This document shows, piece by piece, positions 6,908-31,842 of a stretch of 32,000 bases of DNA. Position 1 is the stretch's first letter; every line of letters begins with the position of its first letter. The notes under the pieces were generated by a model. That model was not told where the DNA came from, ran no database searches, and was given only the letters and a program-made list of their open reading frames with translations. Made by a program: the position numbers and the translations under genes. Source of the DNA: Acaryochloris marina MBIC11017 (GTDB lineage: Bacteria; Cyanobacteriota; Cyanobacteriia; Thermosynechococcales; Thermosynechococcaceae); the NCBI RefSeq assembly GCF_000018105.1, contig NC_009925.1:4740001-4772000 (forward strand), written 5' to 3'.

Positions 6908-6913
6908 TCTGCT

Positions 6914-6950
6914 GCGTCAGGAAGTAGAAGCTATCTTCACTTCCTGACGC
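6914..6950 (+). terminator. Stem-loop 7 nt after the stop of the 4292 gene; possible partial terminator or attenuator
   Basis: GCGTCAGGAAGT (6914-6925) pairs perfectly with ACTTCCTGACGC (6939-6950), a 12-bp stem with a 13-nt loop. It is followed by TTATCGC, which is only a weak U-tract. Confidence 0.45.
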
Positions 6951-7011
6951 TTATCGCAGTCACACCAATTTTCTTAAAGCATTTTTTCTGAATTCAAAAG
7001 GTTTTCTCATC

Positions 7012-7572: not shown

Positions 7573-7579
7573 TGGACTG

Positions 7580-7626
7580 AGAGCTATGGGTGAAACCAAC
7601 TCTCTTTTCGGCTCACCCATAGCTCT
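7580..7626 (+). terminator. 14-bp perfect stem-loop just after the 7012 gene (terminator, processing or stability element)
   Basis: AGAGCTATGGGTGA (7580-7593) pairs with TCACCCATAGCTCT (7613-7626), with a 19-nt loop. No U-tract follows, so intrinsic termination is uncertain. Confidence 0.3.
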
Positions 7627-7814
7627 ACTATCACCGCCTTAAATTTAATTTCCCTTCGGGAAAATAGCATTCTTCAGGCTCAATTCGCAGCCTGATAGGG
7701 ATCTTATGCCCAAAAATACTTCTTTTACACCCATTTGAACCTGAAAAACACTGTTTTTCAACCTTGTGAAAGAGTCAGCGATTCTATCCGATTGTTCCAG
7801 AGGAGATATCTCCC

Positions 7815-13411: not shown

Positions 13412-13463
13412 CTGAACCTCTAACCCTGTCGTTCTCCCGGACTACGGGGTTAGCGCTATCTCA

Positions 13464-13502
13464 GACTTCACACCTAATTAAATGACTTCACACCTATTAA
13501 AT
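13464..13502 (+). repeat. Tandem direct repeat GACTTCACACCTA(A)TTAAAT x2 upstream of the 13535 gene
   Basis: Copy 1 at 13464-13483 and copy 2 at 13484-13502 differ by a single A indel. The core TTC(A/G)CACCTATTAA recurs as an inverted pair at 21307-21353. Confidence 0.8.
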
Positions 13503-13534
13503 CTCTACCTAGTTTGTATCCCCAAGAGGTAATC

Positions 13535-15247: not shown

Positions 15248-15300
15248 AGCCGTTGCCACGTCTGAATTAACGGCTCATTCCTGATTTGTCTAAATCTTTT

Positions 15301-15345
15301 CTCTGATCTCACTTAAGAAAAGGAGTGAGATCAGAGTGTTTTGTT
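15301..15345 (+). terminator. Rho-independent terminator-like hairpin after the beta-helix gene
   Basis: CTCTGATCTCACT (15301-15313) pairs perfectly with AGTGAGATCAGAG (15324-15336), a 13-bp stem with a 10-nt loop. The T-rich run TGTTTTGTTCC follows. Confidence 0.65.
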
Positions 15346-15363
15346 CCTGTTCCTCAATGCATT

Positions 15364-17823
15364 ATGTTTTCATTCAATTGTTTTACCCAGAATTCCTATT
15401 GCCAAAATTCTCTCAAAAAATTAAAATATGCACTACGCAGTGCAAAATGGTTACCCGTTGCAACGTTTGCCGCTACAGCATTCAGTATTCTTGTAGCTCC
15501 TTCCGCAGCACTAGCCCAACGTAACTTTTCCCCACGTTTTAGCACTCAAGCTAGGGGGCGAACCACTATCTTCGGAAATCCGGTTACCACCTGTTCTTCG
15601 ACTATTGGTCCCAGAAGAGATATTTGTGCAGCGACTCAACAGGCGACGACAGGGAGTGGCATCGACTTCACCAACAACGGTTATTGGATGGACTATGTGG
15701 ACATTGATAGTGATGGCTCAACATTCAACTCCTCTTCAGTTACTTACAATTTCCCTACCGCGAATCCTGGCTTTAATATCGTCTGGGCAGGACTTTATTG
15801 GGCTGGGGAAACTTCAGCTGGCGCTGCAAGCGGTGGTATTCCTGCTGGTGAAGCAGCTATCGATGCTAGCAAGCGGAACGAAATGTTACTGCGTATTCCC
15901 GGATCATCAACCTATCAAACTATCACTGCAAGCACCTTAGATACGATCAATACAACCCGATATAGTGCTTTTGCGAATGTCACTTCTTTGGTGCAACAAG
16001 GGGGGAGTGGAACTTACTTTGGGGCCAATATTCAAACGGGGAAAGGTCGCGATCGCTATGGTGGCTGGGCGTTAATCGTCGTCTATCAAGATGATTCGGA
16101 AATACTGCGAAGTATGACTGTGTTTGATGGTTTTATTCAGGTTGGAAATAATATCGTTGATACTACAATCAGTGGTTTTCTAACTCCAAATGCCGGGCCG
16201 TTTGAAGCTGCATTCGGGGCGTTTATCAGTGAAGGAGATGTAGGCCTAACGGGTGACCAATTTTTGATTGATGGGGATGGTGCCAACTCCGATGGCGATG
16301 CAACGGACCAGCCTTTCGTCAATATTAGCGATGCCAATAGCCCGACGACCAATTTCTTTAACAGTTCAGCTTCTTTATTTGAGACGCGAATTGGAACCAA
16401 TACAACGGTCAACACGCCTGATGGCAAGACCCTCGGCCCCATTACCCGGAATCCCGATTATCCCAATTTGCTGGCCCTGGATATTGATATTGTGGAAGCA
16501 AAAGATGCGGCAAACAATGCGGTCATCCAAAACAACGCCACAGAAGCAGGACTGAGATTTACCAGTTCAGGGGATTTTTACTATCCCACCGCTTTCTTTT
16601 TCAGTGTTGAAGTCTTTCAACCCGTCTTGACCCAGAACTTCACCAAGACAGTGACGGATATCAACGGAGGCGATTTGAATCCCGGTGATATTTTGGAATA
16701 CACGATCACTTACCGAAATACCGGGAATGATGCGGCGACTGACGTTGTTTTGACGGATGACATTCCCACTCATACGTCTTACGAACCCAACTCTCTGGTC
16801 ATTACCACCGATCCTGATCCGACCCTGACGACTCCAGCGGCGATGGGAGATGGGACCGCAGATAATGATCGGGCTGAATTTGATAGCGTTAATAACCGCG
16901 TGGTTTTCCGGACAGGGATTGGAGCCAATGGGACCAATGGCGGAGAAGTTCCCTTTGACGACCCCAATACACCGATCGCAGAGAACGATACTGTCCAGGT
17001 CAAATTTAGAGTGAAAGTGGATGGTGATATTAACGTCTTTCCTACGACCATTTCTAACCAGGCCGCAATTGACTACAACGGTAAGTTCTCTGGCATTCCA
17101 TTCTCCGGGGTCAGTGATGACCCCACCACTCCCAATGATCCGAATGATCCGACGGATATAGATGTGGTTGAAGCCTCATCGCCCAACCTGATCTTGGTCA
17201 AACGCATCACGCGGATTAATGGCAGCACAGTCAATGGTGCCGTGAACCTAGAGAACTATGTGGATGATGCCAATAGCCCTTACGACGATAACGTGGACGA
17301 AATCCCCCCCTTTGCTGGACAATCTGATCCAAACCAGGATGACACCACCCACTGGCCAGATGCAGATGCAGCCAATGGCCCTGATGACTATCTAAAAGGA
17401 GCGATTGCTGCGGGTGAAGTCAAACCTGGAGATGAGGTTGAGTACACCATCTATTTCTTATCTACGGGGGGTAAGGATGCGATTGATGTACAGCTTTGTG
17501 ATAAAGTCCCTGCTTTGCAACGTTTTGTACTGGATGCTTATAACGCGGTAACGCCAGCGCCCAGTGGAGGTGTCGGGGCCAATCGGGGGATTGAAGTGGA
17601 GTATAACGGCACCATTTTGTCTTATACCAATGATGCCGATGGAGATACTGCTCAGTATTATCCACCTGGCTCAACTCTTCCTGCCCCTTGTAATAATGCC
17701 CCGGCTCAATCAGAAGACAATGGTGCTGTGGTGCTTGACCTAGGCACACTCCCTGAATCAACGGCTCCAGGAGCACCAACCGCCTCCTATGGCGCGTTGC
17801 GATTCCGGGCCAAGGTAAAGTAG
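15364..17823 (+). CDS. Secreted adhesin-like protein: N-terminal lectin/jelly-roll-like domain, DUF11 domain, and a C-terminal module shared with the 18194 gene
   Basis: The ORF-track start (GTG 15325) lies inside the terminator hairpin, so the first in-frame ATG at 15364 is preferred. Signal peptide: AKWLPVATFAATAFSILVAPSAALA. N-domain motifs: IVWAGLYWAGE and RYGGWALIVVYQD. DUF11 motif: DLNPGDILEYTITYRNTGNDAATDVVLTDDIP. Shared C-terminal module at 17182-17820. Confidence 0.8.
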   Translation: MFSFNCFTQNSYCQNSLKKLKYALRSAKWLPVATFAATAFSILVAPSAALAQRNFSPRFSTQARGRTTIFGNPVTTCSSTIGPRRDICAATQQATTGSGIDFTNNGYWMDYVDIDSDGSTFNSSSVTYNFPTANPGFNIVWAGLYWAGETSAGAASGGIPAGEAAIDASKRNEMLLRIPGSSTYQTITASTLDTINTTRYSAFANVTSLVQQGGSGTYFGANIQTGKGRDRYGGWALIVVYQDDSEILRSMTVFDGFIQVGNNIVDTTISGFLTPNAGPFEAAFGAFISEGDVGLTGDQFLIDGDGANSDGDATDQPFVNISDANSPTTNFFNSSASLFETRIGTNTTVNTPDGKTLGPITRNPDYPNLLALDIDIVEAKDAANNAVIQNNATEAGLRFTSSGDFYYPTAFFFSVEVFQPVLTQNFTKTVTDINGGDLNPGDILEYTITYRNTGNDAATDVVLTDDIPTHTSYEPNSLVITTDPDPTLTTPAAMGDGTADNDRAEFDSVNNRVVFRTGIGANGTNGGEVPFDDPNTPIAENDTVQVKFRVKVDGDINVFPTTISNQAAIDYNGKFSGIPFSGVSDDPTTPNDPNDPTDIDVVEASSPNLILVKRITRINGSTVNGAVNLENYVDDANSPYDDNVDEIPPFAGQSDPNQDDTTHWPDADAANGPDDYLKGAIAAGEVKPGDEVEYTIYFLSTGGKDAIDVQLCDKVPALQRFVLDAYNAVTPAPSGGVGANRGIEVEYNGTILSYTNDADGDTAQYYPPGSTLPAPCNNAPAQSEDNGAVVLDLGTLPESTAPGAPTASYGALRFRAKVK

Positions 17824-17872
17824 GCTTCTGTAACTTTGCCCCTAAAACCAATACTTAGCTAAATGCAGAGGC

Positions 17873-17919
17873 ATGAGTTCTAACAATGAACGGAACTCAT
17901 ACCTCGTTTATTTGTTTGT
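17873..17919 (+). terminator. Weak terminator-like hairpin after the 15364 gene
   Basis: ATGAGTTC (17873-17880) pairs with GAACTCAT (17893-17900), an 8-bp stem with a 12-nt loop. The T-rich run CGTTTATTTGTTTG follows. Confidence 0.4.
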
Positions 17920-17988
17920 ACTGGGCACACATTTGGCAAAAGTGAGTGGGGCTTTTTATTCACCCATGGCAAAAATGCGATTCAAAAG

Positions 17989-18043
17989 GTGAACTATAGC
18001 TATAGATGCGGACTATGGCTGTGGATAGTCAACTATAGCTATA
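17989..18043. promoter_or_regulatory. Cluster of palindromic operator-like sites about 150 nt upstream of the 18194 gene
   Basis: GT(G/C)AACTATAGCTATA occurs twice, at 17989-18004 and 18028-18043 (39-bp spacing). Each copy contains the self-complementary core TATAGCTATA; the first extends to the 12-bp palindrome CTATAGCTATAG at 17994-18005. Between the copies lies the inverted repeat GACTAT-N8-ATAGTC (18011-18030). Confidence 0.35.
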
Positions 18044-18193
18044 AAAAGTCTGCCTTAGGACCTCGACTGAGGGATCAAGATTAATGCTCTGAGCGATCTG
18101 ATTCGGGGTAAGAAGACTCTGGGATTTTCCTCTCAGAAAGCTCGTGCTGTCTTTGTTTCAGGTCGTTCAATATTAGCCAACATCCAGTAACTT

Positions 18194-21100
18194 ATGATGT
18201 TTCTCAAATTCTCTAAGCCATACTTGCCCGCTTCAATGACATTTAAGAAAATACTGACAGGTCTTATTCTATCTGGGGCTTTGGAAAGTGTTGGCTATGG
18301 CGGAGCATTACTGGCTAAGGAAACATACCCACACGCTCAGAAATATCAAGTCTCTGCCCATACCCTACTCCAAACTGACTTGGAGCAAACTTCAAATCCT
18401 CTTCATTCCGCTCGCGCAACGGATGTGGTGATTATTGATGCGGGTGTCACCAATTCCCATGCGTTGCTAAAAAATATCCCCAGTCAAGCAGCCGTTCACT
18501 ATCTCAGCCCAACTGGCGATGGATTGGAGCAGATTGGCGATATCCTCAGCAATTATCGAAATCTCAAATCAGTACATTTGCTGGCTCATGGCTCTTCAGC
18601 TCAATTGCAGCTAGGCAACTCATGGGTTAATCCCGCAACTCTCAACCATAGGGCCAAACAAGTTCAGTCGTGGCAAGCCGCGCTATCGCCAACAGCAGAT
18701 ATCTTTCTCTATGGCTGTCATGTTGCCTCTACTGTGGAAGGGAAAGCCTTTGTGTCTGACCTGGCCACTTTAACCGGCGCTGATATAGCTGCCTCAGATA
18801 ATCTGACAGGTGATGCAACCCAGGGTGGAGATTGGACCTTGGAGTATCAGTTGGGTGACCTAGAACCCCATAGGATTTCTCAGCAACTAGCCCTGTCGAA
18901 TTACGATCAGGTTTTGCAAGTTACCGTTCTCAATTTCAATGACCCAACGCCTTCTTTAGAGCCTGCCACAACGGACGTTTTTCGCTTTCAAAATGTCGCT
19001 ACTGTGGGTGGACAAAGTATTGACGCCCTAGTCACGGTTAGCAATATCAATAATGCAACCCTCACTAACTTGGATGATAATGGCTCTTTCCCTGAGCGAT
19101 TCCAACCTGTGATTCGTCATGATGGTGGAGCCAATGCCATCTCCTCTATCCGATTTGATTTTCAGCTCGTTCAAGCGGGAACAACAACTCCTTTAGCCGC
19201 GACCAATGTTTTTTTTAGTGCCCAAGACGTTGACGGTAATGGCTCTGCTAACTCTGTTAGAGAATTTGTAGAAGTCATTAACGCGGAAACTGTCTTTATC
19301 GACGACCCTACTTTTTTGGAACTCGCAGCCTCATTAGCAGGAGGAATCCGCCATCGAGTTATTAATTCCTCCAATGTGCAAAGTGGTATCGGTACGGACG
19401 ATCGCTACGAAATTTACAGTTACTTGGGGGATACCGTTACTAACTTTTCGATTGTTGCTGGTAATGATGTGGGATCTGCCAACTGTTCCGGGGCAAGCTG
19501 CCCTCGCCAAAACTCTTGGACCTTTGATATTTCCGATATTCAAGTGATCGATTTCAGTGATGCGCCATCTACTTATGGCGTTCCTTCCCATGCTGGCACT
19601 GCAGTGACTACGCTTCGACTCGGGACTGCAAGGGATGGGGATAGTGGTCCTATTCCTTCAGCCGATGCTTTAGGAGACGATAACAATGGCTCTGATGATG
19701 AGGATGGTGTTACCTTAGCCCCCCTCAATGCCAGTGATACCTCCTATTCGATTCAGGCATCGAGTCTTTCCGTCACCAATAGTACGGGAGGTCCAGCAAC
19801 CCTACACGCCTGGGTTGATTTTGATGGCAATGGTACTTTTGACTCCGATGAGTATACAAGTCAACCCGTACAGAACGGTATTAGTTCACCAGATGGAGCC
19901 TTAACCTGGTCGGGGGCTGGAGTAAGCGGAATGTCAGGGGGCACGACCACCTATGCGCGTTTCCGGATTACGACGGATGGGGGTATTAATGCCAATACTC
20001 CGGGTGGATTTGCCAGGGATGGTGAGGTGGAAGATCATGCCCTTGCGATCACAACTCCAGTCAATCCAGATATAGATAATAACTTCTGCCAGGTGAGCAG
20101 TGACATGATGTTTATCTTGGATAAATCGGGTTCCGTGAGTCTCAGTGAGCGACGATTACAACGAGATGCGGTTATGGCAATGCTCAATTACTTGGTCGAT
20201 AACAATATTACGTCTCGGGTAGGTATTGTCCGGTTTGACTCTACAAGTGCCACAGTGATCGGTTATACCGATGTAACGGCTGCTAATCTGCCTACTTTTG
20301 AAAGCGCCCTCAATACTAACTATGTCAATATTGGTGGGGGCGCCACCAATTGGGAAGCTGGATTCCAGCAGGCTATTTCCCTGGGGGTATCACCGGGCAG
20401 CCCTGATGTCGTTTTCTTCTTCGCTGATGGCAACATCAATTCGGGAGGCAGCCCGAACGATGAAGCGTTGCAATTCAAGCAGGCGGGTGCTCATATTTAT
20501 GGAATTGGTATCCAAAGTTTAGATATCGATGATTTCTTGGATATAACCGATGGTAGTAATACCACTCAATTTGACGCTGCGCTGGATAATGCTAATTCTG
20601 CCGATTATGTAGAAGTTAATAGCTATGACGACTTAGCGGACGATATGACCAGCTTGTTACGTTCACTTTGTCCACCTGCAACCAACAACCCCAATGTGTT
20701 ACTGGTCAAGCGGATCACCCGCGTGAATGGCCTCACAGAGAATGGGGGCACTAACCTCAATGTTTACGTTGATGACCCCAGCTACGAGTACGATGACAAT
20801 ACCCTCGGTAGCCCTGCGCCCACTCCCTTGGATACCGAATACTGGCCCACTCCAAGCACCTTTTTACTGGGGGCCACCAATGGAGGTCAAACCCGTCCAG
20901 GGGATGAAGTTGAGTACACCATCTATTTCCTATCAACGGGTACTTCAACGGCCGTGGGTGTTCAATTCTGCGATAAAGTTCCTAGTTTCCAAACCTTTGT
21001 GCCTGATGCGTTTAACGCCGTACCCCCTGCACCTAGTGGAGGCGTCGGAGCCAATCGGGGCATTGCAGTCGAATACAACGGCAGTCTTCTCTCATTTACC

Positions 21101-21295
21101 AACGATGCAGATGGAGATACCGCTCAGTATTATCCACCGGGTTCCACCTTGCCCGCAGTTTGTGATAATGCCCCCGCCCAAACAGAAGATAACGGTGCCA
21201 TCGTCGTCAACTTAGGTGATTTGCCCCAAGCAACGGGTGTAGGTACCCCGGCAACTTCTTATGGCGCCGTTCGGTTTCGGGCCAGAGTGAAGTAG
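18194..21295 (+). CDS. Large secreted modular adhesin-like protein: DUF4347, beta-sandwich region, GEVED domain, von Willebrand factor A domain, shared C-terminal module (1033 aa)
   Basis: DUF4347-like region at about 18419-18855: VVIIDAGV...SVHLLAHGSSAQLQLGN...DIFLYGCHVA...LATLTGADIAASDNLTG...GGDWTLEY. GEVED-type domain at about 19546-20050: DFSDAPSTYG...DDEDGV...WVDFDGNGTFD...YARFRIT...DGEVEDHAL. vWA domain with MIDAS at about 20102-20670: FILDKSGSVS...GGGATNWEAG...FFFADG. The start could instead be the ATG at 18236. Confidence 0.85.
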   Translation: MMFLKFSKPYLPASMTFKKILTGLILSGALESVGYGGALLAKETYPHAQKYQVSAHTLLQTDLEQTSNPLHSARATDVVIIDAGVTNSHALLKNIPSQAAVHYLSPTGDGLEQIGDILSNYRNLKSVHLLAHGSSAQLQLGNSWVNPATLNHRAKQVQSWQAALSPTADIFLYGCHVASTVEGKAFVSDLATLTGADIAASDNLTGDATQGGDWTLEYQLGDLEPHRISQQLALSNYDQVLQVTVLNFNDPTPSLEPATTDVFRFQNVATVGGQSIDALVTVSNINNATLTNLDDNGSFPERFQPVIRHDGGANAISSIRFDFQLVQAGTTTPLAATNVFFSAQDVDGNGSANSVREFVEVINAETVFIDDPTFLELAASLAGGIRHRVINSSNVQSGIGTDDRYEIYSYLGDTVTNFSIVAGNDVGSANCSGASCPRQNSWTFDISDIQVIDFSDAPSTYGVPSHAGTAVTTLRLGTARDGDSGPIPSADALGDDNNGSDDEDGVTLAPLNASDTSYSIQASSLSVTNSTGGPATLHAWVDFDGNGTFDSDEYTSQPVQNGISSPDGALTWSGAGVSGMSGGTTTYARFRITTDGGINANTPGGFARDGEVEDHALAITTPVNPDIDNNFCQVSSDMMFILDKSGSVSLSERRLQRDAVMAMLNYLVDNNITSRVGIVRFDSTSATVIGYTDVTAANLPTFESALNTNYVNIGGGATNWEAGFQQAISLGVSPGSPDVVFFFADGNINSGGSPNDEALQFKQAGAHIYGIGIQSLDIDDFLDITDGSNTTQFDAALDNANSADYVEVNSYDDLADDMTSLLRSLCPPATNNPNVLLVKRITRVNGLTENGGTNLNVYVDDPSYEYDDNTLGSPAPTPLDTEYWPTPSTFLLGATNGGQTRPGDEVEYTIYFLSTGTSTAVGVQFCDKVPSFQTFVPDAFNAVPPAPSGGVGANRGIAVEYNGSLLSFTNDADGDTAQYYPPGSTLPAVCDNAPAQTEDNGAIVVNLGDLPQATGVGTPATSYGAVRFRARVK

Positions 21296-24289: not shown

Positions 24290-24514
24290 AAGTACTTTGG
24301 GAGTTTGAATGGCTAGCATTGTTTCAATCAGCTCTATATCGATCTGGGACGATACCAACCATTCGTTGGTTATCCAAGAAAGGGGAGTACAAATTGAGAT
24401 GAGTGCAATCTTAAAGAAAACACTTGCCCAACCAGTAATTTTAGGCTTAGGGACTTTGATTGAAAATTGTTCTTACTAAAGAGCCATCAAAAATATCACA
24501 GAAAGTTTCATGCT

Positions 24515-27500
24515 TTAAGGCTCCCACAGCTTCACCGTCCGGTCGGAGCTGGCCGTGGCGATGGTGTTGCCATCTGGGCTATAGGTTACACTCAAGACCC
24601 GATTACTGTGTCCTTTGAGGGTTTGTAACTCCTTGCCATCGGCGCTCCACAGCTTCACCGTTTCATCATTACTGGCTGTGGCAATGGTTTTGCCATCCGG
24701 GCTATAGGTCACACTCCTAACCGGAGCACTGTGTCCTTTGAGGGTCTGTAATTCCTTGCCATCGGTGCTCCACAGCGTCACTGTCTGGTCATCACTGGCT
24801 GTGGCAATGGTTTTGCCATCCGGGCTATAGGTCACACTCCTAACCGGAGCACTGTGTCCTTTGAGGGTCTGTAATTCCTTGCCATCGGCGCTCCACAGCT
24901 TCACCGTTTCATAATTACTGGCTGTGGCAATGGTTTTGCCATCCGGGCTATAGGTTACAGCACTGTGTCCTTTGAGGGTCTGTAATTCCTTGCCATCGGC
25001 GCTCCACAGCTTCACCGTGCCGTCAAAACTGGCTGTGGCAATGGTTTTGCCATCCGGGCTATAGGTCACACTCCTAACTGAACCACTGTGTCCTTTGAGG
25101 GTTTGTACCTCCTTGCCATCAGCGCTCCACAGCTTCACCGTGCCGTCATCACTGGCTGTAGCAATGGTTTTGCCATCCGGGCTATAGGTTACACCCCAGA
25201 CCGCAGCATTGTGTCCTTTGAGGGTCCGTAACTCCTTACCATCGGCGCTCCACAGCTTCACCGTGCCGTTATCACTGGCTGTGGCAATGATTTTGCCATC
25301 CGGGCTATAGGTCACACTCAAGACCAGAGCTTCAACAGTTAGTTGACTGATGCCATCCCGAATTTGAAAGCTTTCTTGGTCAAGTAATTTTGCTTTTGTA
25401 TAAGGATCATAGTCTAGTGATGCCCCCCATTTTTTCGCTAGATTAAACAAATCAACCGCTGTTGTGATTTGACCTTGTTTTGCCGCTATTTCAGCCTGCT
25501 CAAGTAAAGCAGGTATAGCCTTAGCTCTTAGTGCAGGCTTAAGTCTAAGACAAACATCCAGATCTCTAAGCAGTAAAGGTTCTCGGATCAAATAATCGTC
25601 AAGCCAGTGACAAGCAATATTCAATAATTTCTCAACGTCCAGTATCCACAGCTTCACCGTGCCGTCAGAACTGGCTGTGGCAATGGTTTTGCCATCCGGG
25701 CTATAGGTCACACTCCTAACCGGAGCACTGTGTCCTTTGAGGGTCTGTAATTCCTTGCCATCGGCACTCCACAGCTTCACCGTGCCGTCAGAACTGGCTG
25801 TGGCAATGGTTTTGCCATCCGGGCTATAGGTCACACTCCTAACCGGAGCACTGTGTCCTTTGAGGGTCTGTAACTCCTTACCATCGGCGCTCCACAGCTT
25901 CACCGTATTGTCATCACTGGCTGTGGCAATGGTTTTGCTATCTGGGCTATAGGTCACACTATTGACCAAATCACTGTGTCCTTTGAGGGTCTGTAATTCC
26001 TTGCCATCGGCGCTCCACAGCTTCACCGTTGCATCATTACTGGCTGTGGCAATGGTTTTGCCATCCGGGCTATAGGTCACACTATTGACCAAATCACTGT
26101 GTCCTTTGAGGGTCTGTAATTCCTTGCCATCGGCGCTCCACAACTTCACTGTCTTGTCATCACTGGCCGAGGCGATGGTTTTGCCATCTGGGCTATAGGT
26201 CACACTCCTGACCGCAGAACTGTGGCCCAATAAGCGCTCTTGCTCACGCACCCCATAGATAACGTCTCGCATAGCAGCTAATGCTTGCATAGTCACAACG
26301 CCATCAAGATCCTCTGACTGGAGTCTTTGACCCGTTTTGACAGCTTCAATCACCGCATCTTTCTCAAAAAATGCCGCTTTATAGTTCAGCATCGCGAAGC
26401 TGGATGCCACTACCTGAGCATTCTTTTCTCCTCTAAGCGCAGCTTGTTGCCCTTTTATCGCAGCTTGTCGCATGGACAGCGCAATTCCTCCAGCAATGAT
26501 TGCCAGAACTGCTAATCCACCTAAACCGACAGCAGCAAACCTTGCCTGTCGTAACTGCTTTGTTTCCGCACCCTGCCGACGTTCACGCTCTTCCTCTAGT
26601 TGAACCATCAGAGGTCGTTGGGTTTCCCGGATAAACGCAGCGATAAAGTCATGAAAAAGCTGGTACCGAATATGATCTTGATCTTGCAGCTCTAGTACAA
26701 CACCTGACTTTAATAAGATTGTCGAGACTTGCTGCCACCGCGATTCATCTTTTTCTACCCCATTCCCCAATGGTTGAATCGCATTCAACAACTCGGATCG
26801 AGTCAGCAGGGGACGAGTGCCCTTAGCATCCGTTAAAGAAAATAGAATTAAGTCGGCAAGTTTCTGAGCATCAGCGTCGCCACATGCAGACACCACCGAT
26901 CTTAGAAAGCGATCAACGAAAGTATTTTTATCACCTTGGCGTTGATAGGCTTCTAGGGTCTCAATCCCTTCTTCCTGTAGCTGAGTCCCAATTACTTGGA
27001 GTTCAACAGGGCGGACTTCTCCTTCAGTCGCTAAGTCTTCAACTAGCTCCTGAACTAATTGTTCCTCTAGTTGAAATTGAGTCTCCTGACTTAATTCATA
27101 GATAATTTTTTTGGCCCGCTGAACCGAAAAATTTCCCAGATAGTAGCGGTGACGGGGACTTAAAATATTTTGTAAGGCATCAGCACTGGTCTCGTTATTC
27201 GCCTCTAACCGCTCACACTCCAACAGTGTATGGAGATAGTCCTCCCGCAAGGACAGCGATATTTTGACATGATGTAGGGCATCAGAATCCATACAATGTC
27301 GTAGAAAAGCCCAAAATTGCTCACGAATGGCTAACGTCGTGGCAAAGAAAAATTCTTCAAATTGGTCAAATATCAACAGGACCTGGCAATTTCCTTTGCT
27401 TAGTGCCACCAGTCTATTAACTAATCCCGCGAAGCTTTCTTTTTGATCATCAGCTTGTTCTGCATCCGAAGTAACCGATGTAGCCATAACGGAAGCTAGG

Positions 27501-29344
27501 CTTTCCTCTTCCGCAAACGATTCTAAGCCGTGAATTGCTACACTTTGCCAATCGGTGTAGCGATTGATCAGAATGGGCGCAATACGTTGAGTTTCGATCC
27601 GCTGCTGCCTCAGCTTTGGCAACAGACTTGATCGAATTAAGGAGCTTTTACCCACACCAGACTGGCCATAAAGAACCATTAAACGGATATCAGAACGCAA
27701 AATCAGCCGAATAACTGCTTCCAAATCTTGCAATCGCCCGGCTGAAGTCACTTGACGTTCCAAAGACTCTAAGGGTTGGTTTTCAGTTGGTATCGGATCA
27801 AAAATTTGGGTCGTTGCCCGTAACGCTGGTAATTTGAACTCGAATTCATCAGAATGTTGAATCGCGTACAACAATCGCATTGAAAACGGTACAAATTTAT
27901 ATTGATATTGAATCCATCGTTTTTGCTGCTCAAACTGGAATGCTCTCACAACATTCCCTTTCTGGCGGTAAAGCTGGGCTAAACAATCGCAAATATCAAT
28001 CTGCAATTGCGGGTCACGCTGCGGATCGCTTTCCTCACATAATTCCAAGCTCGCGATTGCAGATTCCAAGTTACCTTGATGCTGGTAAGCTTTGGCTAAC
28101 AATAAGCGATAGAGAGCTTGGCGAGGAACGTGCTGAATATCGGCTTGCTCTAGGATTTCTAGCGCCTTTTGAGAATGCTGCACAGCCTGGTCCCATTGTT
28201 GACAATGCAAGGCAACCTCTGCCAGATACCCATAGTCACGAGCCAGATAAATTTCAGGATAAGTTTTCCTGGCGGTGATTTGCGTCCTACCCTCCGCTGC
28301 TCCAACATTAAGCTGCTGAGACTCTGCAATAAATGCTTTGGTCTGGTGAAATGTTAGGGCTTGTTGGGTGATCTTTTGCAGTTCATCCCATTTAGCCTGT
28401 TGACGCAGGATTTCACATAAGTCCCCCATAAATCTGGCGACTAAATCCTGGCGCTGCCCCTGTTCAAAGGCCCCTAGGCTTAATTCCATCAGCTCTTGGG
28501 CTTGACGCCAATCCCAGCGATTTCGCCACCAATACAGGCTTGGATCAGCGGCACATCGAGCCATACGAAAGTAGAGAATGCCGATTTCCCCGGACTGGTA
28601 GGCTGCCTCACTTCCATGGGCTTTTCGATAGCCCAGAACAGACTCAAAACAGGTTTTTGCGCTCTCCCGATCACCTGTTGATACTGCCCAATAGCCCTGG
28701 ACTAAATCGACAGTGGCAATTTGTTCCGCAGATAGCTGCGATCTCCGTTCCGCCAAATCATTGAGGATTAGCCTTAGTTCGTTCTTCTGACTGCCCTTCA
28801 CCGTGTCATCAACGGTTCCTTGCTGGTGCAAATCCTGTGCCAAAATCTGGTCTGCAACCGTTTCTACCGAGTCGTAGAGGGGCTCAATCGGTAAGGGAAA
28901 AGAGATCGTATCAGCCCAGCTAAATAAGTCTGACGCTAACCGAATCATTATTTGCAAACTTTCATCCGTTAGCCAAAGTACAAGGGGAAAATCAAATTGA
29001 CGGAATTCTTCCCGGACAACGTTGGTCGCCGTCAATAGCTCTTCTACGCTGGTATGTTCTTCCAATCCCTCGACCATCAGCGCCGGAGGAGAAGTCTTGC
29101 GGGCTTGTTGCAAGATAAATTGCAGCAAGCGCTCCTCATCCTTTGGCAATATGGCGAGTTCAAAACTACTGGAGTGCTCAGTTCGTAATTCTTGCACCAG
29201 TAATCTACGCAGGCTAACGGAATTACAGATCGCCAGAACCAGCGTAAATTCACCTTGAGAAAACTGCAGGATGCGGCTCATCTCCCGCAAGGGTTGAGCA
29301 TAAATCCCTAAATCAATTTGGGACCAATCAAACTCTAAACTCAC
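24515..29344 (-). CDS. Giant signal-transduction NTPase: N-terminal alpha/beta domain + TPR region, STAND P-loop NTPase (nSTAND1-like), one TM helix, 12 WD40 repeats in two blocks (1609 aa)
   Basis: GTG start at 29342-29344 overlaps the upstream TGA (GTGA). Walker A: LYGQSGVGKSSL (27644-27667). Walker B: VLLIFDQFEEFF (27353-27382). This pair of motifs matches what I recall for the novel STAND NTPase 1 family. TPR-like helices are at about residues 200-480. TM helix: FAAVGLGGLAVLAIIAGGIALSM. WD40 units: GHSxxVxSVTYSPDGKTIATASxDxTVKLWSADGKELQTLK. Confidence 0.9.
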   Translation of the reverse strand: MSLEFDWSQIDLGIYAQPLREMSRILQFSQGEFTLVLAICNSVSLRRLLVQELRTEHSSSFELAILPKDEERLLQFILQQARKTSPPALMVEGLEEHTSVEELLTATNVVREEFRQFDFPLVLWLTDESLQIMIRLASDLFSWADTISFPLPIEPLYDSVETVADQILAQDLHQQGTVDDTVKGSQKNELRLILNDLAERRSQLSAEQIATVDLVQGYWAVSTGDRESAKTCFESVLGYRKAHGSEAAYQSGEIGILYFRMARCAADPSLYWWRNRWDWRQAQELMELSLGAFEQGQRQDLVARFMGDLCEILRQQAKWDELQKITQQALTFHQTKAFIAESQQLNVGAAEGRTQITARKTYPEIYLARDYGYLAEVALHCQQWDQAVQHSQKALEILEQADIQHVPRQALYRLLLAKAYQHQGNLESAIASLELCEESDPQRDPQLQIDICDCLAQLYRQKGNVVRAFQFEQQKRWIQYQYKFVPFSMRLLYAIQHSDEFEFKLPALRATTQIFDPIPTENQPLESLERQVTSAGRLQDLEAVIRLILRSDIRLMVLYGQSGVGKSSLIRSSLLPKLRQQRIETQRIAPILINRYTDWQSVAIHGLESFAEEESLASVMATSVTSDAEQADDQKESFAGLVNRLVALSKGNCQVLLIFDQFEEFFFATTLAIREQFWAFLRHCMDSDALHHVKISLSLREDYLHTLLECERLEANNETSADALQNILSPRHRYYLGNFSVQRAKKIIYELSQETQFQLEEQLVQELVEDLATEGEVRPVELQVIGTQLQEEGIETLEAYQRQGDKNTFVDRFLRSVVSACGDADAQKLADLILFSLTDAKGTRPLLTRSELLNAIQPLGNGVEKDESRWQQVSTILLKSGVVLELQDQDHIRYQLFHDFIAAFIRETQRPLMVQLEEERERRQGAETKQLRQARFAAVGLGGLAVLAIIAGGIALSMRQAAIKGQQAALRGEKNAQVVASSFAMLNYKAAFFEKDAVIEAVKTGQRLQSEDLDGVVTMQALAAMRDVIYGVREQERLLGHSSAVRSVTYSPDGKTIASASDDKTVKLWSADGKELQTLKGHSDLVNSVTYSPDGKTIATASNDATVKLWSADGKELQTLKGHSDLVNSVTYSPDSKTIATASDDNTVKLWSADGKELQTLKGHSAPVRSVTYSPDGKTIATASSDGTVKLWSADGKELQTLKGHSAPVRSVTYSPDGKTIATASSDGTVKLWILDVEKLLNIACHWLDDYLIREPLLLRDLDVCLRLKPALRAKAIPALLEQAEIAAKQGQITTAVDLFNLAKKWGASLDYDPYTKAKLLDQESFQIRDGISQLTVEALVLSVTYSPDGKIIATASDNGTVKLWSADGKELRTLKGHNAAVWGVTYSPDGKTIATASDDGTVKLWSADGKEVQTLKGHSGSVRSVTYSPDGKTIATASFDGTVKLWSADGKELQTLKGHSAVTYSPDGKTIATASNYETVKLWSADGKELQTLKGHSAPVRSVTYSPDGKTIATASDDQTVTLWSTDGKELQTLKGHSAPVRSVTYSPDGKTIATASNDETVKLWSADGKELQTLKGHSNRVLSVTYSPDGNTIATASSDRTVKLWEP
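24518..25318 (-). repeat. Intragenic tandem array, WD40 block 2: seven 123-nt units (first N-terminally truncated, one 12 nt shorter, last C-terminally truncated)
   Basis: The 123-nt periodicity is read directly. For example, CCACAGCTTCACCG recurs at 24524 and 24647. The units are nearly identical at nucleotide level. Confidence 0.95.
25646..26227 (-). repeat. Intragenic tandem array, WD40 block 1: five 123-nt units
   Basis: 25646-25750 and 25769-25873 are identical over 105 nt. The whole adjacent units differ at 3 of 123 positions. Confidence 0.95.
26471..26539 (-). other. Single predicted transmembrane helix separating the NTPase module from the WD40 modules
   Basis: Encodes FAAVGLGGLAVLAIIAGGIALSM (23 hydrophobic or small residues). 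It is preceded by the Arg/Lys-rich stretch EERERRQGAETKQLRQAR. Confidence 0.7.
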
Positions 29345-30681
29345 CGCAGCTCCTCAGCATCCGTCAGGATGGGATTGATATCAAACCAAGACTGCTCTTC
29401 ATCCCGATATTCAAAGACAAACAAGCTGCGCAGCAGGGTTTGATAGGCATCTTCACCTCGGACAGCTTTACTCTCTCTAACCTGGCGCAACAACTCCCAT
29501 TCGTCAGCAGTAATGGGTTTGCTCAAATCATAACGACGTTGGCTAATCACTTGCTCTAGCAACTTGCTCGACACCGGGGGGTCATCTTTCTTTAGGCAGC
29601 CATGCATTAACACCAGTAAGTTGCGCACATGTCCCCCACTGGTTTGGCAAAGGCGTTCTAAAGTCGCTTCCGAATCAAACAGTTCTGATAACTGGTCTTG
29701 TCCAGCTCGTACTAAAATCATTTGTTTTAGCGCTGCCATCCCGGCCTCGCAGCTACTCTGATCTCGATTCTGCACACGCACCATCGGCAGCAGTTGAGGA
29801 TCTGAACCAAACCGATTGGATAGCCGTTCTTTCTCGTTGGAAAAGGCAAGAACTAAGGGAATTGTATAGATAACGTGACAAGTAAGTTGCTTTAGTTGCT
29901 CACCCCGATCCACAAATAAATATTCAGGTTGAGAACGATTGGGCAGCTTTTCCAGATTGTCAATCCGGTCCAGATTATCCACAATCACGACGAGACCCGC
30001 TTTCCCTTGCTGTTGCAGTTGAGTTTTTGCTGGCACCATAATTTCAGTATTAATGGCTTCTAAGATGGTATTCACCCTAGGTTCCAAATGACTGCGCAAC
30101 AGTGAGCGAACTTCTTTACTATCCCGAGACTTCGTCGTCAATTCGCCAATCCCAAAGGCCAGGGAATATTCACCATCCTTATGGCTCATTCCTACCTTGC
30201 TATCCAGGGCTGGAATATTTAATTTCAGGCCAGTCACTTCTGAGTTGAGTAAATCAACCGCACCGTGCAGAATTTTCTGGAAGCGTGTAGGTTCAAGGCA
30301 AATATCAGCCTGGGCCAAACTTTGGGTGATTTGACGGGCAATCACCAGCAAAATATCACTGATATCCACATCGGCCAGATCTAACTCTTCAGAGGATTCG
30401 AAAAAAACCACATGATAGTTTAAGTCTTCCAATTCCTGTTTCAGACGGGATAATTCCGTGGACTTCCCGCAACCAATATGTCCCGTAAATAATTGACAGG
30501 TGGCATCATCCCCAGACAAGTTAATGGTGCGCCGGAGTTCTTTCACCACATCGTTCCCCCGCACCGCAGCAAAATCGATATAGCAGGCACGGTCCTTTGC
30601 ATCCCCATAATTTAGGGTTTTGCTGGGATTACAAGCCCGAAACAACTGCCCGACATTCAAAACCATGGTTCTCACTGGCAA
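29341..30681 (-). CDS. P-loop ATPase (AAA+/ORC-Cdc6-like or STAND-related), 446 aa, translationally coupled to the WD40 NTPase gene
   Basis: Walker A: FTGHIGCGKSTEL (30457-30483 encodes GHIGCGKST). Walker B: GLVVIVDNLDRI. The lid-like motif QTSGGHVRNLLVLM is reminiscent of the GDxR region of Orc1/Cdc6-type AAA+ proteins. The stop overlaps the downstream GTG start. Confidence 0.85.
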   Translation of the reverse strand: MPVRTMVLNVGQLFRACNPSKTLNYGDAKDRACYIDFAAVRGNDVVKELRRTINLSGDDATCQLFTGHIGCGKSTELSRLKQELEDLNYHVVFFESSEELDLADVDISDILLVIARQITQSLAQADICLEPTRFQKILHGAVDLLNSEVTGLKLNIPALDSKVGMSHKDGEYSLAFGIGELTTKSRDSKEVRSLLRSHLEPRVNTILEAINTEIMVPAKTQLQQQGKAGLVVIVDNLDRIDNLEKLPNRSQPEYLFVDRGEQLKQLTCHVIYTIPLVLAFSNEKERLSNRFGSDPQLLPMVRVQNRDQSSCEAGMAALKQMILVRAGQDQLSELFDSEATLERLCQTSGGHVRNLLVLMHGCLKKDDPPVSSKLLEQVISQRRYDLSKPITADEWELLRQVRESKAVRGEDAYQTLLRSLFVFEYRDEEQSWFDINPILTDAEELR

Positions 30682-30901
30682 TACAATTTGCTTTCATCAT
30701 GCCAAAAGTAAGTACAGAAGACTGAAAAATTTACAAGGTTATAGATGCCTTGTTCACAAAATCTCCATAAATCAGCAAGAGAGTATTTTTAGTACAGGAC
30801 AACACTTTTGTGAGCTAGCTAGGGGTATGTTGTGAAGGAAATCACGAACCCTCACGACTAGATCCAATATTTTTCTAGTCAATAGTTCTAATTATGCTGC
30901 A

Positions 30902-31354
30902 TTAGCCCCCTAAATCCCCCATTCTGGGGGACTTTGAGTGTCTATCAATGCTTTGCTCGCTCGCCTGTCGGATTTGCTGAAGTACATGATCGAGGTGGTG
31001 CATAACGTCTGAGTTATGGAATCGGATCACTCGGTAACCCAGCTGGTTGAGCTGTTCGGTACGGGCTTCATCATATTCCACCTGCTGATTGTGGATGTCG
31101 CCGTCTAGCTCAATCACTAATCGGCATTGGGGACAGTAAAAATCGACAATGAACGAACCAATGGCGTGTTGACACCGGAATTTCAGGCCGCTGAGTTGAC
31201 GTTTTTGCAGTGCTTTCCACAGCTTTTGTTCTGCTGGCGTTAGATTGAGTCTTAGTTGTCGCGCGGCGGCAACGACGGCTGGGGTTGTGCCGCGAATGCG
31301 GTGGTGTTGTGTCTGTTTCTCTCGCATCGTGTTACCCCCAACCCTGTTTCCCAT
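30902..31354 (-). CDS. DUF559 / Vsr-like endonuclease-fold protein
   Basis: LTPAEQKLWKALQ...FRCQHAIGSFIVDFYCPQCRLVIELDGDIHNQQVEYDEARTEQLNQLGYRVIRFHNSDV matches the DUF559 pattern (xVDFYC...IExDG..H...YD..R...L...G..V.RF). The start could instead be the ATG at 31327. The last 11 codons (SPRMGDLGG and neighbours) are encoded by the left inverted repeat. Confidence 0.8.
   Translation of the reverse strand: MGNRVGGNTMREKQTQHHRIRGTTPAVVAAARQLRLNLTPAEQKLWKALQKRQLSGLKFRCQHAIGSFIVDFYCPQCRLVIELDGDIHNQQVEYDEARTEQLNQLGYRVIRFHNSDVMHHLDHVLQQIRQASEQSIDRHSKSPRMGDLGG
30905..30938. repeat. Left 34-bp inverted repeat flanking the DUF559 gene
   Basis: GCCCCCTAAATCCCCCATTCTGGGGGACTTTGAG is the exact reverse complement of 31372-31405. 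It contains an internal CCCCC-N5-GGGGG mini-hairpin. Confidence 0.95.
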
Positions 31355-31371
31355 CTAGGATAATCATAAAT

Positions 31372-31405
31372 CTCAAAGTCCCCCAGAATGGGGGATTTAG
31401 GGGGC
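31372..31405. repeat. Right 34-bp inverted repeat flanking the DUF559 gene
   Basis: CTCAAAGTCCCCCAGAATGGGGGATTTAGGGGGC is the exact reverse complement of 30905-30938. Confidence 0.95.
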
Positions 31406-31842
31406 GGATGCAGGGTTTAACGGAGCTTCCAAAACAACTTCTCAACACCGCTCATGATGACGGCAGAGGGTGATGGCTTTAAGTTTTGTACTGCACTGAG
31501 GAGAGCATTACACTCAAGCGCCAACCAACATTGGCGTAATATGACACAAAAAAGTGCTTAACCCCAGACAATGCGATCACGCTAGAAAATTTATAAATAA
31601 AGGGATAGCTCAATACATCGGCTGTCAATTCTGATTTTTGGTCACAAACCTGGAATATCAATCACATCTTCTCCAAAGTGATTTCAAAACATATATTGCG
31701 CGTTATTTCTTCCAGAAATACCTGAAAAAATCCGATTGCGGCAACAGCGCTTGTCCTCCACACTGAGAGTAGCTCAATGCAAGCGAATCACAGATTGACT
31801 GAGCTTGCAGAAAAGTACGAGGTCTAGAGGAGTGGAAATGCT

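What the first reader, a model, noticed from the sequence alone, without database searches (positions are those of the whole stretch)
24518..26227. WD40 units homogenised at nucleotide level, with variation confined to a few codons on the predicted propeller top face
The repeat period is exactly 123 nt (41 aa). Neighbouring units are nearly identical even at synonymous sites: 25646-25750 equals 25769-25873 over 105 nt.

Across the 12 units, almost all amino-acid variation falls in two places:
- Positions 3-8 after the GH dipeptide: SAVRS, DLVNS, APVRS, AAVWG, GSVRS, NRVLS.
- Positions 22-25 in the S-x-D-x turn: SDDK, SNDA, SDDN, SSDG, SDNG, SDDG, SFDG, SNYE, SDDQ, SNDE, SSDR.

In WD40 propellers the D-A and B-C loops that carry these positions form the top ligand-binding surface.

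Concerted evolution of the scaffold combined with diversification of contact residues is the pattern reported for fungal NLR-like HET-E/D/R WD repeats and for some bacterial STAND proteins. It is interpreted there as rapid re-tuning of recognition specificity by repeat recombination.
Basis: partly seen in the sequence, partly recalled or inferred. Interest (0 to 1): 0.7.

Follow-up and report, generated by a model that had tools for sequence, protein, structure and literature searches.

The report
Hypervariable WD40 sensor array, cyanobacterial STAND
The repeats are the sensor end of a large cyanobacterial NLR-like ATPase (Acaryochloris marina AM1_4732): the repeat scaffold is kept uniform by recombination, five ligand-facing residues per repeat vary, and a sister strain carries a completely different array. 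This is a clear but already-known kind of fast-evolving recognition module.

Summary

**What is there**
- Window 24518-26230 (minus strand) encodes 12 WD40 units of 41 aa.
- They are not one array. Five units are followed by a 109-aa non-WD linker, then seven units. One unit lacks 4 codons.
- Scaffold codons are homogenised: same-codon use is 0.84 against 0.34 expected. Synonymous divergence is not zero (pS 0.185).
- Five positions (5, 6, 8, 24, 26) hold 64% of the positional entropy. They include the WD40 top-face hotspots R1-2, R1 and D-1, and the four positively selected sites of fungal HET-E/D.

**The gene**
- It is Acaryochloris marina MBIC11017 AM1_4732.
- Its architecture is an α/β domain, TPR, nSTAND1 NTPase, one predicted membrane helix, then WD40.
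- It is translationally coupled to a partner ATPase that is conserved upstream in 67 of 80 related loci.

**Strain comparison**
- A second A. marina strain is 99.8% identical through codon 1035 and 99.1% identical downstream.
- It nevertheless carries 16 uninterrupted units with different variable residues.
- 26 of 28 units are closest to a unit of their own array, which indicates concerted evolution.

**Verdict**
- The phenomenon is known from highly repetitive WD40s, WRAP and fungal HNWD genes, so this is a new member of a known kind.
- The possibly new twist is a predicted extracytoplasmic location for the sensor.

The parts
24515..29344 (-). Whole gene AM1_4732: 1609 aa, GTG start, TAA stop at 24515-24517.
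   Evidence: ORF list. It is 100% identical to P0001/P0002, named Acaryochloris marina AM1_4732.
25646..26230 (-). WD40 block 1: units 1-5 (aa 1039-1233). Units 4 and 5 are identical over 106 nt.
   Evidence: pLDDT is about 90 or more in the AF2 model.
25319..25645 (-). Non-WD linker (aa 1234-1342). It consists of the family's post-array cap (LDxxLLxxxCxWLxDYL...C, cysteines 1245 and 1265) followed by a helical extension.
   Evidence: Homologous over about 90 aa to the C-terminal post-array extension of L083, L058, L031 and L012. The cap with its Cys pair occurs in 48 of 54 family proteins. Predicted helical but with low pLDDT. Absent from the strain-2 allele.
24518..25318 (-). WD40 block 2: units 6-12 (aa 1343-1609), predicted to form a 7-bladed propeller. 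Unit 9 (24863-24973) lacks 4 codons. The protein ends KLWEP without a cap.
   Evidence: Foldseek match to 7big_A: TM 0.95, rmsd 0.9 A over 280 columns. Closest solved sequence is 2YMU, the WRAP propeller.
26471..26539 (-). Predicted single transmembrane helix, aa 936-958 (FAAVGLGGLAVLAIIAGGIALSM).
   Evidence: It is the only strongly hydrophobic segment in the protein. An equivalent segment lies at a conserved offset in 66 of 78 relatives, with flanks of 4.65 versus 2.56 K+R.
26780..27739 (-). nSTAND1 STAND NTPase domain (aa 536-855). Walker A GQSGVGKS lies at 27644-27667. A Walker-B-like LLIFDQFEE lies at 27353-27379.
   Evidence: PF20703, E 2.2e-24, 87 bits against a cut-off of 27. Motif coordinates.
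27854..28888 (-). TPR-like helical solenoid (aa 153-497).
   Evidence: TPR_12 and TPR_8 hits. AF2 model built with an alignment: pLDDT 84, pTM 0.80. Foldseek hits are LGN and KLC TPR domains.
28895..29344 (-). N-terminal five-stranded alpha/beta domain (aa 1-150) of unknown function. C40, R115 and W124 are invariant.
   Evidence: No hit in Pfam, PHROGs or PADLOC.
29341..30666 (-). Partner P-loop ATPase, 441 aa. Its TGA stop overlaps the GTG start of AM1_4732 (GTGA).
   Evidence: Weak ATPase_2 and nSTAND5 hits. A homologue (45-65% identity) lies on the same strand ahead of the nSTAND1 match, usually ending just before it, in 67 of 80 related loci. Overlap shown.
30902..31354 (-). DUF559 (Vsr-like endonuclease fold) gene upstream, bracketed by a 42-nt inverted repeat. 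Whether it belongs to the system is uncertain.
   Evidence: PF04480, E 1.8e-37. Present in strain 2. Inverted repeat.

Best explanation
**What it is**
The repeats are the ligand-sensing end of a STAND (NLR-like) NTPase of the nSTAND1 clade. The architecture is an N-terminal α/β domain, TPR, nSTAND1 NTPase, one membrane helix, and WD40 propellers. It is co-translated with a conserved partner ATPase.

**How the array evolves**
- Intragenic recombination between units (unequal crossing-over or gene conversion) keeps the 36 scaffold codons nearly uniform.
- The same recombination changes unit number and reassorts two short cassettes per unit: the D-A loop and the B-C turn.
- Diversity in those cassettes is retained or favoured, because they line the top binding face of the propeller.
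- The outcome is rapid turnover of binding specificity between strains while the rest of the gene stays unchanged.

**Shown**
- The architecture.
- Homogenisation of scaffold codons.
- The location of the variable sites.
- The allelic difference between strains.
- Conservation of the operon.

**Inferred**
- That the variable face binds a non-self or otherwise fast-changing ligand.
- That binding switches the NTPase.
- That the propellers lie outside the cytoplasm.
- That the system serves immunity or kin discrimination.
For: **Domains**
-.

**Homogenisation**
- Same-codon frequency is 0.84 against 0.34 expected.
- Scaffold nucleotide identity within each array is 93.6% and 93.5%.
- The terminal units are the most divergent.

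**Diversification**
- HV pN is 0.52-0.54 against scaffold pN of 0.02-0.03.
- HV dN divided by scaffold dS is 4.1 and 5.3 in two independent arrays.
- The same five positions top the entropy ranking in 12 other highly repetitive arrays of this family.

**Top face**
-.

**Strain comparison**
- Only 7 of 3105 nt differ upstream, and the downstream 13 kb is 99.1% identical.
- The array is about 85% identical, with 16 versus 12 units and no linker in the sister strain.
- The drop in identity starts at the first hypervariable codons of unit 1.

**Concerted evolution**
- 26 of 28 units cluster by array, and 0 of 5000 permutations reached the observed difference.

**Cassette reassortment**
- The identical B-C cassette AGTTCTGACGGC is paired with four different D-A cassettes across the two alleles.

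**Operon**
- The partner gene is present in 67 of 80 loci.
Against: - No ligand, phenotype or expression data exist.
- No PADLOC defence model matches either protein.
- At the HV codons themselves pN/pS is only about 1.5-1.7 on very few sites. Positive selection, as opposed to unconstrained loops, is therefore not proven, and dN/dS is not strictly valid among recombining repeats.
- Between-array scaffold divergence (about 9%, with about 5 near-fixed synonymous differences per 105 nt) is far above flank divergence (0.2-0.9%). Neutral concerted evolution alone would not produce this. It hints at import of a divergent array or exchange with paralogues that I could not search.
- Block 1 has only 5 blades, which is unusual for WD40. 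This may be a real contraction or a collapse of identical units in assembly.
Confidence: 0.72

Rival explanations
1. The between-strain difference arose by replacement, not in-place evolution. One strain acquired a divergent array by homologous recombination. The donor was either another lineage (horizontal transfer) or a paralogous WD40 locus, as in the interlocus exchange of the fungal HNWD family. Concerted evolution still operates within each array.
For: - Scaffold divergence between arrays is about 9% against 0.2-0.9% in the flanks.
- No unit has a counterpart in the other array above 96% scaffold identity.
- The locus lies in a variable island. A strain about 95% related has three TPR genes in its place.
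- A 105-nt indel abuts the stop codon.
Against: - The divergent tract coincides exactly with the array, running from the first HV codon of unit 1 to the last unit. Both alleles share the same ...TVKLWEP-stop ending.
- No donor array was found on plasmids, in 185k representative genomes or in JGI metagenomes.
- The A. marina chromosomes themselves could not be searched.
Confidence: 0.3
2. This is a recently amplified propeller, the 'WRAP' reading. Each array was amplified from a single blade a short time ago. The differences are just the first point mutations, landing where loops tolerate them. There is no ongoing homogenisation and no selection for diversity.
For: - The closest solved structure is WRAP (2YMU), for which this interpretation was proposed.
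- Arrays in this family span the whole range from 0.9 to 0.1 internal identity, as expected if arrays are born and then decay.
Against: - Within-array synonymous divergence is substantial (pS 0.16-0.19), whereas WRAP has none.
- That divergence is far larger than the divergence between the strains' flanks, so the units predate the strain split. Yet the units cluster by strain.
- HV codons differ at several nucleotides per codon, and cassettes are reassorted.
Confidence: 0.1
3. The pattern is an assembly artefact. Near-identity, unit number or the 5+7 layout results from mis-assembly or collapse of a repeat.
For: - Every short-read assembly breaks inside the array.
- Units 4 and 5 are identical over 106 nt, so extra copies could have been collapsed.
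- A 5-blade block is atypical for WD40.
Against: - Unit 1 and unit 12 are reproduced exactly in independent runs, as is the last unit of the strain-2 allele.
- Ten of the 12 units carry unique variable cassettes, which makes them distinguishable.
- The reading frame is intact over 1609 codons.
- The same pattern occurs in 12 other genomes.
Confidence: 0.07
4. Targeted hypermutation, for example by a diversity-generating retroelement, writes the variable codons.
For: DGRs do diversify sensors of nSTAND1 proteins in other bacteria (PMC10907252).
Against: - No reverse transcriptase is encoded in the 32-kb window.
- No separate template repeat was seen in the window's tandem-repeat scan. A dedicated search for one was not run.
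- Known DGR targets are C-type lectin folds, not WD40.
Confidence: 0.02

Closest known systems
WRAP propeller of Nostoc punctiforme Npun_R6612 (PDB 2YMU) and the 'highly repetitive WD40' class (Hu et al. 2017, PMC5587647; Pereira & Lupas 2022, PMC9218822)
   Same: - It is the best sequence match among solved structures (E 5e-224).
- Both have 41-aa units at the C-terminus of a cyanobacterial STAND ATPase whose gene is coupled to a second ATPase gene.
- Internal identity is at least 0.7.
- The differences between units fall at top-face hotspot positions.
   Different: - WRAP has 14 blades with no synonymous differences. This array has pS of about 0.18 and five variable positions per unit.
- This array is split by an internal cap and linker. 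The sister strain has 16 units.
- The partner ATPase here has no TIR or caspase domain.
- I did not test whether Npun_R6612 is an nSTAND1 protein or has the membrane helix.
Podospora anserina HNWD / HET-E, HET-D, HET-R NACHT-WD genes (PMC1805685, PMC2873952)
   Same: - Nucleotide-level homogenisation of the WD units.
- Repeat-number polymorphism between strains.
[quoted passage not shown]
- Both are STAND NTPases with a C-terminal sensor.
   Different: - The NTPase is nSTAND1, not NACHT.
- There is no HET effector domain.
- It is bacterial, so RIP does not apply.
- Interlocus exchange among paralogues was not demonstrated.
- There is a predicted membrane helix between the NTPase and the repeats.
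- No allorecognition phenotype is known.
Bacterial antiviral STANDs (Avs, bNACHT) and Apaf-1-like WD40 STANDs (PMC13581612)
   Same: - The tripartite logic of effector or adaptor, STAND NTPase, and repeat sensor.
- WD40 sensors are documented in cyanobacterial STANDs.
   Different: - No PADLOC model matches.
- No recognised effector domain is present.
- There is an obligatory partner ATPase.
- The sensor is predicted to be extracytoplasmic, whereas Avs proteins sense phage proteins in the cytoplasm.

Membership tests
WD40 repeat / highly repetitive WD40 (Hu et al. 2017) | Repeats recognised as WD40 and folding as a beta-propeller. | tested here: met
   PF00400, E 5.7e-147, 12 stretches. AF2 pLDDT is about 90. 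Block 2 superposes on a 7-blade WRAP design with TM 0.95.
WD40 repeat / highly repetitive WD40 (Hu et al. 2017) | Internal sequence identity between repeats of at least 0.7. | tested here: met
   Mean pairwise amino-acid identity is 0.85 (minimum 0.74) here and 0.84 in the sister allele. Their exact eight-contiguous-repeat criterion was not reproduced.
WD40 repeat / highly repetitive WD40 (Hu et al. 2017) | Residual diversity concentrated at predicted top-face hotspots (R1-2, R1, D-1). | tested here: met
   Positions 6, 8 and 24 correspond to R1-2, R1 and D-1 and are among the five highest-entropy columns.
nSTAND1 clade of STAND NTPases (Pfam PF20703; Kaur et al. 2021) | Match to the nSTAND1 profile above the curated cut-off, with a Walker A motif. 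| tested here: met
   87.2 bits against a cut-off of 27.1, covering aa 536-855. GQSGVGKS lies at aa 560. NACHT and NB-ARC score below their cut-offs.
nSTAND1 clade of STAND NTPases (Pfam PF20703; Kaur et al. 2021) | N-terminal effector or effector-associated adaptor domain. | tested here: inconclusive
   The N-terminal 150 aa form a conserved α/β domain with no family assignment. TPRs follow it.
Fungal HNWD (HET-E/D/R) non-self recognition genes | HET domain plus NACHT NTPase. | tested here: not met
   No HET hit. NACHT E is 0.02 with 15 bits, below the 26.7 cut-off. The protein works like this family but is not a member.
Fungal HNWD (HET-E/D/R) non-self recognition genes | Concerted evolution of WD units, with repeat-number polymorphism between strains. 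| tested here: met
   26 of 28 units cluster by array. The strains carry 12 versus 16 units.
Fungal HNWD (HET-E/D/R) non-self recognition genes | Exchange of repeats between paralogous loci. | not testable with these tools
   The A. marina chromosomes were not searchable. Plasmid, representative-genome and metagenome scans found no second array with this scaffold.
Catalogued antiphage defence systems (PADLOC-DB 2.0) | Significant match to a defence-system protein model. | tested here: not met
   Only marginal hits were found: NsnB at E 0.035, mad8 at 0.0015 and PDC-S20 at 0.0036.
DGR-diversified sensors | Reverse transcriptase and template repeat near the variable region. | tested here: not met
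   No RT domain is present among the ORFs of the window.

The most novel reading that the evidence does not exclude
AM1_4732 and its several hundred cyanobacterial relatives may be membrane-spanning NLR-like receptors.
- The NTPase would be cytoplasmic and the hypervariable WD40 propellers periplasmic or luminal.
- The strain-specific arrays would then read extracellular or cell-surface ligands, such as phage particles, neighbouring cells or host surfaces, rather than cytoplasmic invader proteins.
- The signal would cross the membrane to a two-ATPase module.

Evidence supporting this reading:
- One uncharged 20-25-aa segment lies at a fixed offset in 66 of 78 relatives.
- It has positive-inside flanks: 4.65 versus 2.56 K+R.
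- Some relatives end 1-2 residues after this helix.
Probability: 0.35. Interest if true: 0.7.

Novelty: new member of a known kind. Interest (0 to 1): 0.45.

Why it matters
**A clean bacterial case**
This is a clean bacterial counterpart of the fungal HET-E/D mechanism. Two natural alleles have essentially identical flanks but wholly different sensor arrays: 12 versus 16 units, with or without an internal cap.

**What the allele pair makes testable**
- Does array content set binding specificity?
- How fast do such arrays turn over in bacteria?
- Which reading fits better, 'recent amplification' or 'concerted evolution plus diversifying selection'?

**Family-level findings**
If confirmed, three features would define an uncharacterised and widespread two-gene STAND system in cyanobacteria:
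- a conserved partner ATPase;
- a conserved membrane helix;
- a capped array.

Tried and rejected
- **Exact look-up of the 1609-aa product.** Nothing was found, probably because the query was translated from its GTG start codon and so did not match the stored sequence exactly. The neighbouring pentapeptide gene gave the source genome instead.
- **Protein search with the linker.** It found nothing, not even the protein itself. I judge the word index too sparse for this query. Local phmmer against fetched relatives solved it.
- **Protein search with block 2.** It was swamped by short, unrelated WD40 fragments of at most 60% identity. It did not list the gene itself, so it says nothing about paralogues.
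- **Exact 30-mer scans for the unit.** Scans of representative genomes and JGI metagenomes, and a megablast against plasmids, all returned zero. No donor paralogue was found, but the A. marina representative evidently lacks this gene or is not in the genome set.
- **Model coordinates.** They are not exposed to scripts. Top-face mapping therefore rests on DSSP topology plus published WD40 rules, not on measured solvent exposure.
- **Foldseek of the N-terminal model.** The TPR part dominated the results, so the α/β domain stays unassigned.
- **DGR hypothesis.** Rejected because no reverse transcriptase is present.
- **Partner ATPase.** It has no PDB, PHROG or NCBIfam relative.
Full report
**Observation**

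The finding lies in one long minus-strand ORF, window 24515-29344 (1609 aa, GTG start).
- Tandem Repeats Finder reports period 123 in two arrays, 24524-25319 and 25645-26224.
- Anchoring on TYSPD gives 12 units of 41 aa.
- The claimed identity 25646-25750 = 25769-25873 is exact and runs 106 nt.

- Units 1-5 and 6-12 are separated by 109 non-WD residues (window 25319-25645).
- Unit 9 lacks four codons.
- Unit 6 lacks the K-G-H-S start.

**Is it more than chance?**

- Pairwise unit identity averages 88% at nucleotide level (77-100%). The two terminal units are the most divergent.
- At 23 invariant, degenerate amino-acid columns two units share the same codon 84% of the time. The codon usage of the gene's own N-terminal 1035 codons predicts 34%.
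- Homogenisation is not complete: scaffold pS is 0.185 and pN is 0.022.
- Variation is concentrated in positions 5, 6, 8, 24 and 26 of the register K1-G2-H3.
- Over 28 units from two strains, these five columns hold 64% of all positional entropy.
- HV dN divided by scaffold dS is 4.1 in this array and 5.3 in the sister strain's array. Scaffold dN/dS is 0.10-0.18.
- At the HV codons themselves pN/pS is only about 1.5-1.7 on few sites, and dN/dS among recombining repeats is not rigorous. I therefore treat 'diversity retained against homogenisation' as shown and 'positive selection' as likely.

**Where the variable sites sit**

A single-sequence AF2 model of aa 1020-1609 has pLDDT 82.5, with about 90 or more in both WD blocks and 40-60 in the linker.
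- By DSSP, strand A is V7-Y12, strand B is T18-S23, strand C is T27-S32 and strand D is E37-K1'.
- Positions 5 and 6 therefore close the D-to-A loop. Position 8 is the second residue of strand A. Positions 24-26 form the B-C turn.
- By the published WD40 rules, the pattern (V/L/I)-R1-R2-(V/L/I) defines R1, with R1-2 two residues before it and D-1 before the tetrad Asp. These correspond to positions 8, 6 and 24, the three residues generally used for top-face binding (PMC3419727).
- The pairs 6/8 and 24/26 flank a conserved V and D. Codons 7/9 and 25/27 do the same in Podospora HNWD repeats, where they are the four positively selected sites (PMC1805685).
- The bottom loops (SPDGK and SADGK) are invariant.
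- Block 2 superposes on a 7-bladed WRAP design (7big_A, TM 0.95, rmsd 0.9 Å).
- The closest solved sequence is 2YMU, the WRAP propeller of Nostoc punctiforme (E 5e-224).

**What the gene is**

The N-terminal 1035 aa are 100% identical to Acaryochloris marina MBIC11017 AM1_4732. The domains, in order:
- A conserved five-stranded α/β domain of unknown family (aa 1-150).
- A TPR-like solenoid (aa 153-497). The AF2 model built with an alignment has pLDDT 84 and pTM 0.80, and Foldseek hits LGN and KLC TPR domains.
- An nSTAND1 NTPase (PF20703, 87 bits against a cut-off of 27; Walker A GQSGVGKS).
- A single strongly hydrophobic segment at aa 936-958.
- The WD40 region.

The upstream gene (29341-30666) encodes a 441-aa P-loop ATPase. 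Its TGA stop overlaps the GTG start of AM1_4732.

**The family**

- A scan of representative genomes found at least 562 relatives, and the 80 kept loci are almost all cyanobacterial.
- In 67 of those 80 loci a partner homologue (45-65% identity) lies on the same strand ahead of the nSTAND1 match, usually ending just before it. This is a conserved two-gene system.
- 66 of 78 relatives have an uncharged 20-25-aa segment 350-410 aa after the Walker A motif. K+R counts are 4.65 on the N-side against 2.56 on the C-side. Several relatives end 1-2 residues after it.
- Most WD-bearing members end with a cap, C-x2-(W/L)-x2-D-Y-L...C. The Cys pair is conserved in 48 of 54.
- Internal array identity in the family ranges from 0.9 to 0.1.
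- In 12 independent highly repetitive arrays, positions 6, 24, 8 and 5 have the highest mean entropy, and position 26 ranks just after them, level with position 1.

**The strain comparison**

A second complete A. marina genome (GCA_024347835.1, locus L001) carries the orthologue (P0003, 1686 aa).
- Codons 1-1035 differ at 7 of 3105 nt and 2 aa.
- The downstream 13 kb is 99.1% identical.
- Identity collapses exactly at the first hypervariable codons of unit 1.
- The sister array has 16 uninterrupted units, no linker, and different variable residues that are rich in W, Y and F.
- Both alleles end ...TVKLWEP-stop.

Evidence for concerted evolution:
- Scaffold identity is 93.6% and 93.5% within the arrays but 91.0% between them.
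- Each array has its own near-fixed synonymous codons: ATT versus ATC, ACA versus ACC, CAG versus CAA.
- 26 of 28 units have their nearest scaffold neighbour in their own array. The two exceptions are MBIC's terminal units.
- 0 of 5000 label permutations reach the observed within-minus-between difference.

This is the signature of concerted evolution with edge units escaping. Identical B-C cassettes are paired with different D-A cassettes across the alleles, which fits reassortment.

**The linker**

Its first 30 residues or so are the family's post-array cap. About 90 residues align to the post-array extension of the closest clade, L083, L058, L031 and L012. The likely history follows, and it is an inference.
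- The cap and extension are ancestral.
- MBIC retains them after five units and has a second seven-unit block beyond them.
- The sister allele lost them, plausibly by unit-to-unit recombination across the linker.

**Artefact check**

- Five independent short-read assemblies match the window with zero mismatches from 30929 until each breaks. Three of them reach unit 1 or the start of unit 2 (about 26095-26132) before breaking.
- Another assembly reproduces unit 12, and another reproduces the last unit of the sister allele.
- The interior is unverified. Units 4 and 5 are identical, so the count in block 1 (five blades, atypical for WD40) could be an underestimate.

**Alternatives**

- *Recent amplification without homogenisation.* This fits WRAP, which has no synonymous differences. 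It does not fit here, where units are older than the strain split yet cluster by strain.
- *Import of a divergent array by recombination.* This remains plausible and is not exclusive of concerted evolution. Between-array scaffold divergence (about 9%) greatly exceeds flank divergence. The locus also sits in a variable island, since a strain about 95% related has three TPR genes there. No donor was found, but the A. marina chromosomes could not be searched.
- *A DGR.* This is excluded in cis, because the window has no reverse transcriptase.

**Comparison and novelty**

- Concentration of diversity at hotspot sites in highly repetitive bacterial WD40s is published (PMC5587647).
- The WRAP branch and its STAND-plus-second-ATPase operon are published (PMC9218822, PMC6805158).
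- The concerted-evolution mechanism is published for fungi.
- This gene meets the defining features of highly repetitive WD40 and of nSTAND1. It behaves like HNWD but is not a member, because it has no HET or NACHT domain.
- It is therefore a new member of a known kind.
- Two things may be new: the direct two-allele demonstration in a bacterium, and the family-wide membrane helix implying an extracytoplasmic sensor. I found no description of the latter in the papers searched. That search was not exhaustive, and Dunin-Horkawicz et al. 2014 could not be read.

Noticed in passing
window 30897-30938 and 31372-31413: A 42-nt inverted repeat (95% complementary) brackets the DUF559 endonuclease ORF. 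Each arm contains a CCCCC-AGAAT-GGGGG mini-palindrome. Five independent short-read assemblies all break at 30929, inside one arm, which suggests a multicopy element.
   Followed up: partly
window 24410-24514: A 105-nt segment lies directly after the stop codon of the WD40 gene. It is present in MBIC11017 and in an independent assembly of it, but absent from the sister strain. It has no other copy in the window or in the fetched loci.
   Followed up: partly
window 25550-25612 (aa 1245-1265); loci L011-L090: The post-array cap motif C-x2-(W/L)-x2-D-Y-L...C has a conserved cysteine pair in 48 of 54 WD-bearing family proteins. This could be a disulfide if the domain is extracytoplasmic. In AM1_4732 the cap is internal, and the sister allele lacks it.
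   Followed up: partly
window 26471-26539; loci L011-L090: A single predicted transmembrane helix lies between the NTPase and the WD40 region. It is conserved in position in 66 of 78 relatives and has positive-inside flanks. Some relatives (L048, L071, L072, L087) end 1-2 residues after it.
   Followed up: yes
window 28895-29344: The N-terminal 150 aa form a confidently modelled five-stranded α/β domain with invariant C40, R115 and W124. It has no Pfam, PHROG or PADLOC assignment. It is the candidate output or adaptor domain.
   Followed up: partly
L002 1504-7544, compared with window 24290-31400: A related strain with about 95% flank identity carries three TPR-repeat genes next to the rhodanese gene. 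MBIC11017 has DUF559, the partner ATPase and nSTAND1/WD40 there instead. The locus is a variable island.
   Followed up: partly
window 4292-21295: A run of large genes for apparently secreted or surface proteins: DUF7925, DUF11/CLIPPER, beta-helix/NosD, and DUF4347-GEVED-VWA. The stretch from about 11430 to 21295 is conserved at 95-99% in the related strains compared.
   Followed up: no
L008 1-4247: In Anabaena azotica a second nSTAND1-WD40 gene lies immediately upstream of the partner-ATPase/nSTAND1-WD40 pair, so the family members are duplicated in tandem there.
   Followed up: no
window 13464-13502: A short tandem repeat (period 20, two copies) lies in the intergenic region between two large ORFs.
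   Followed up: no
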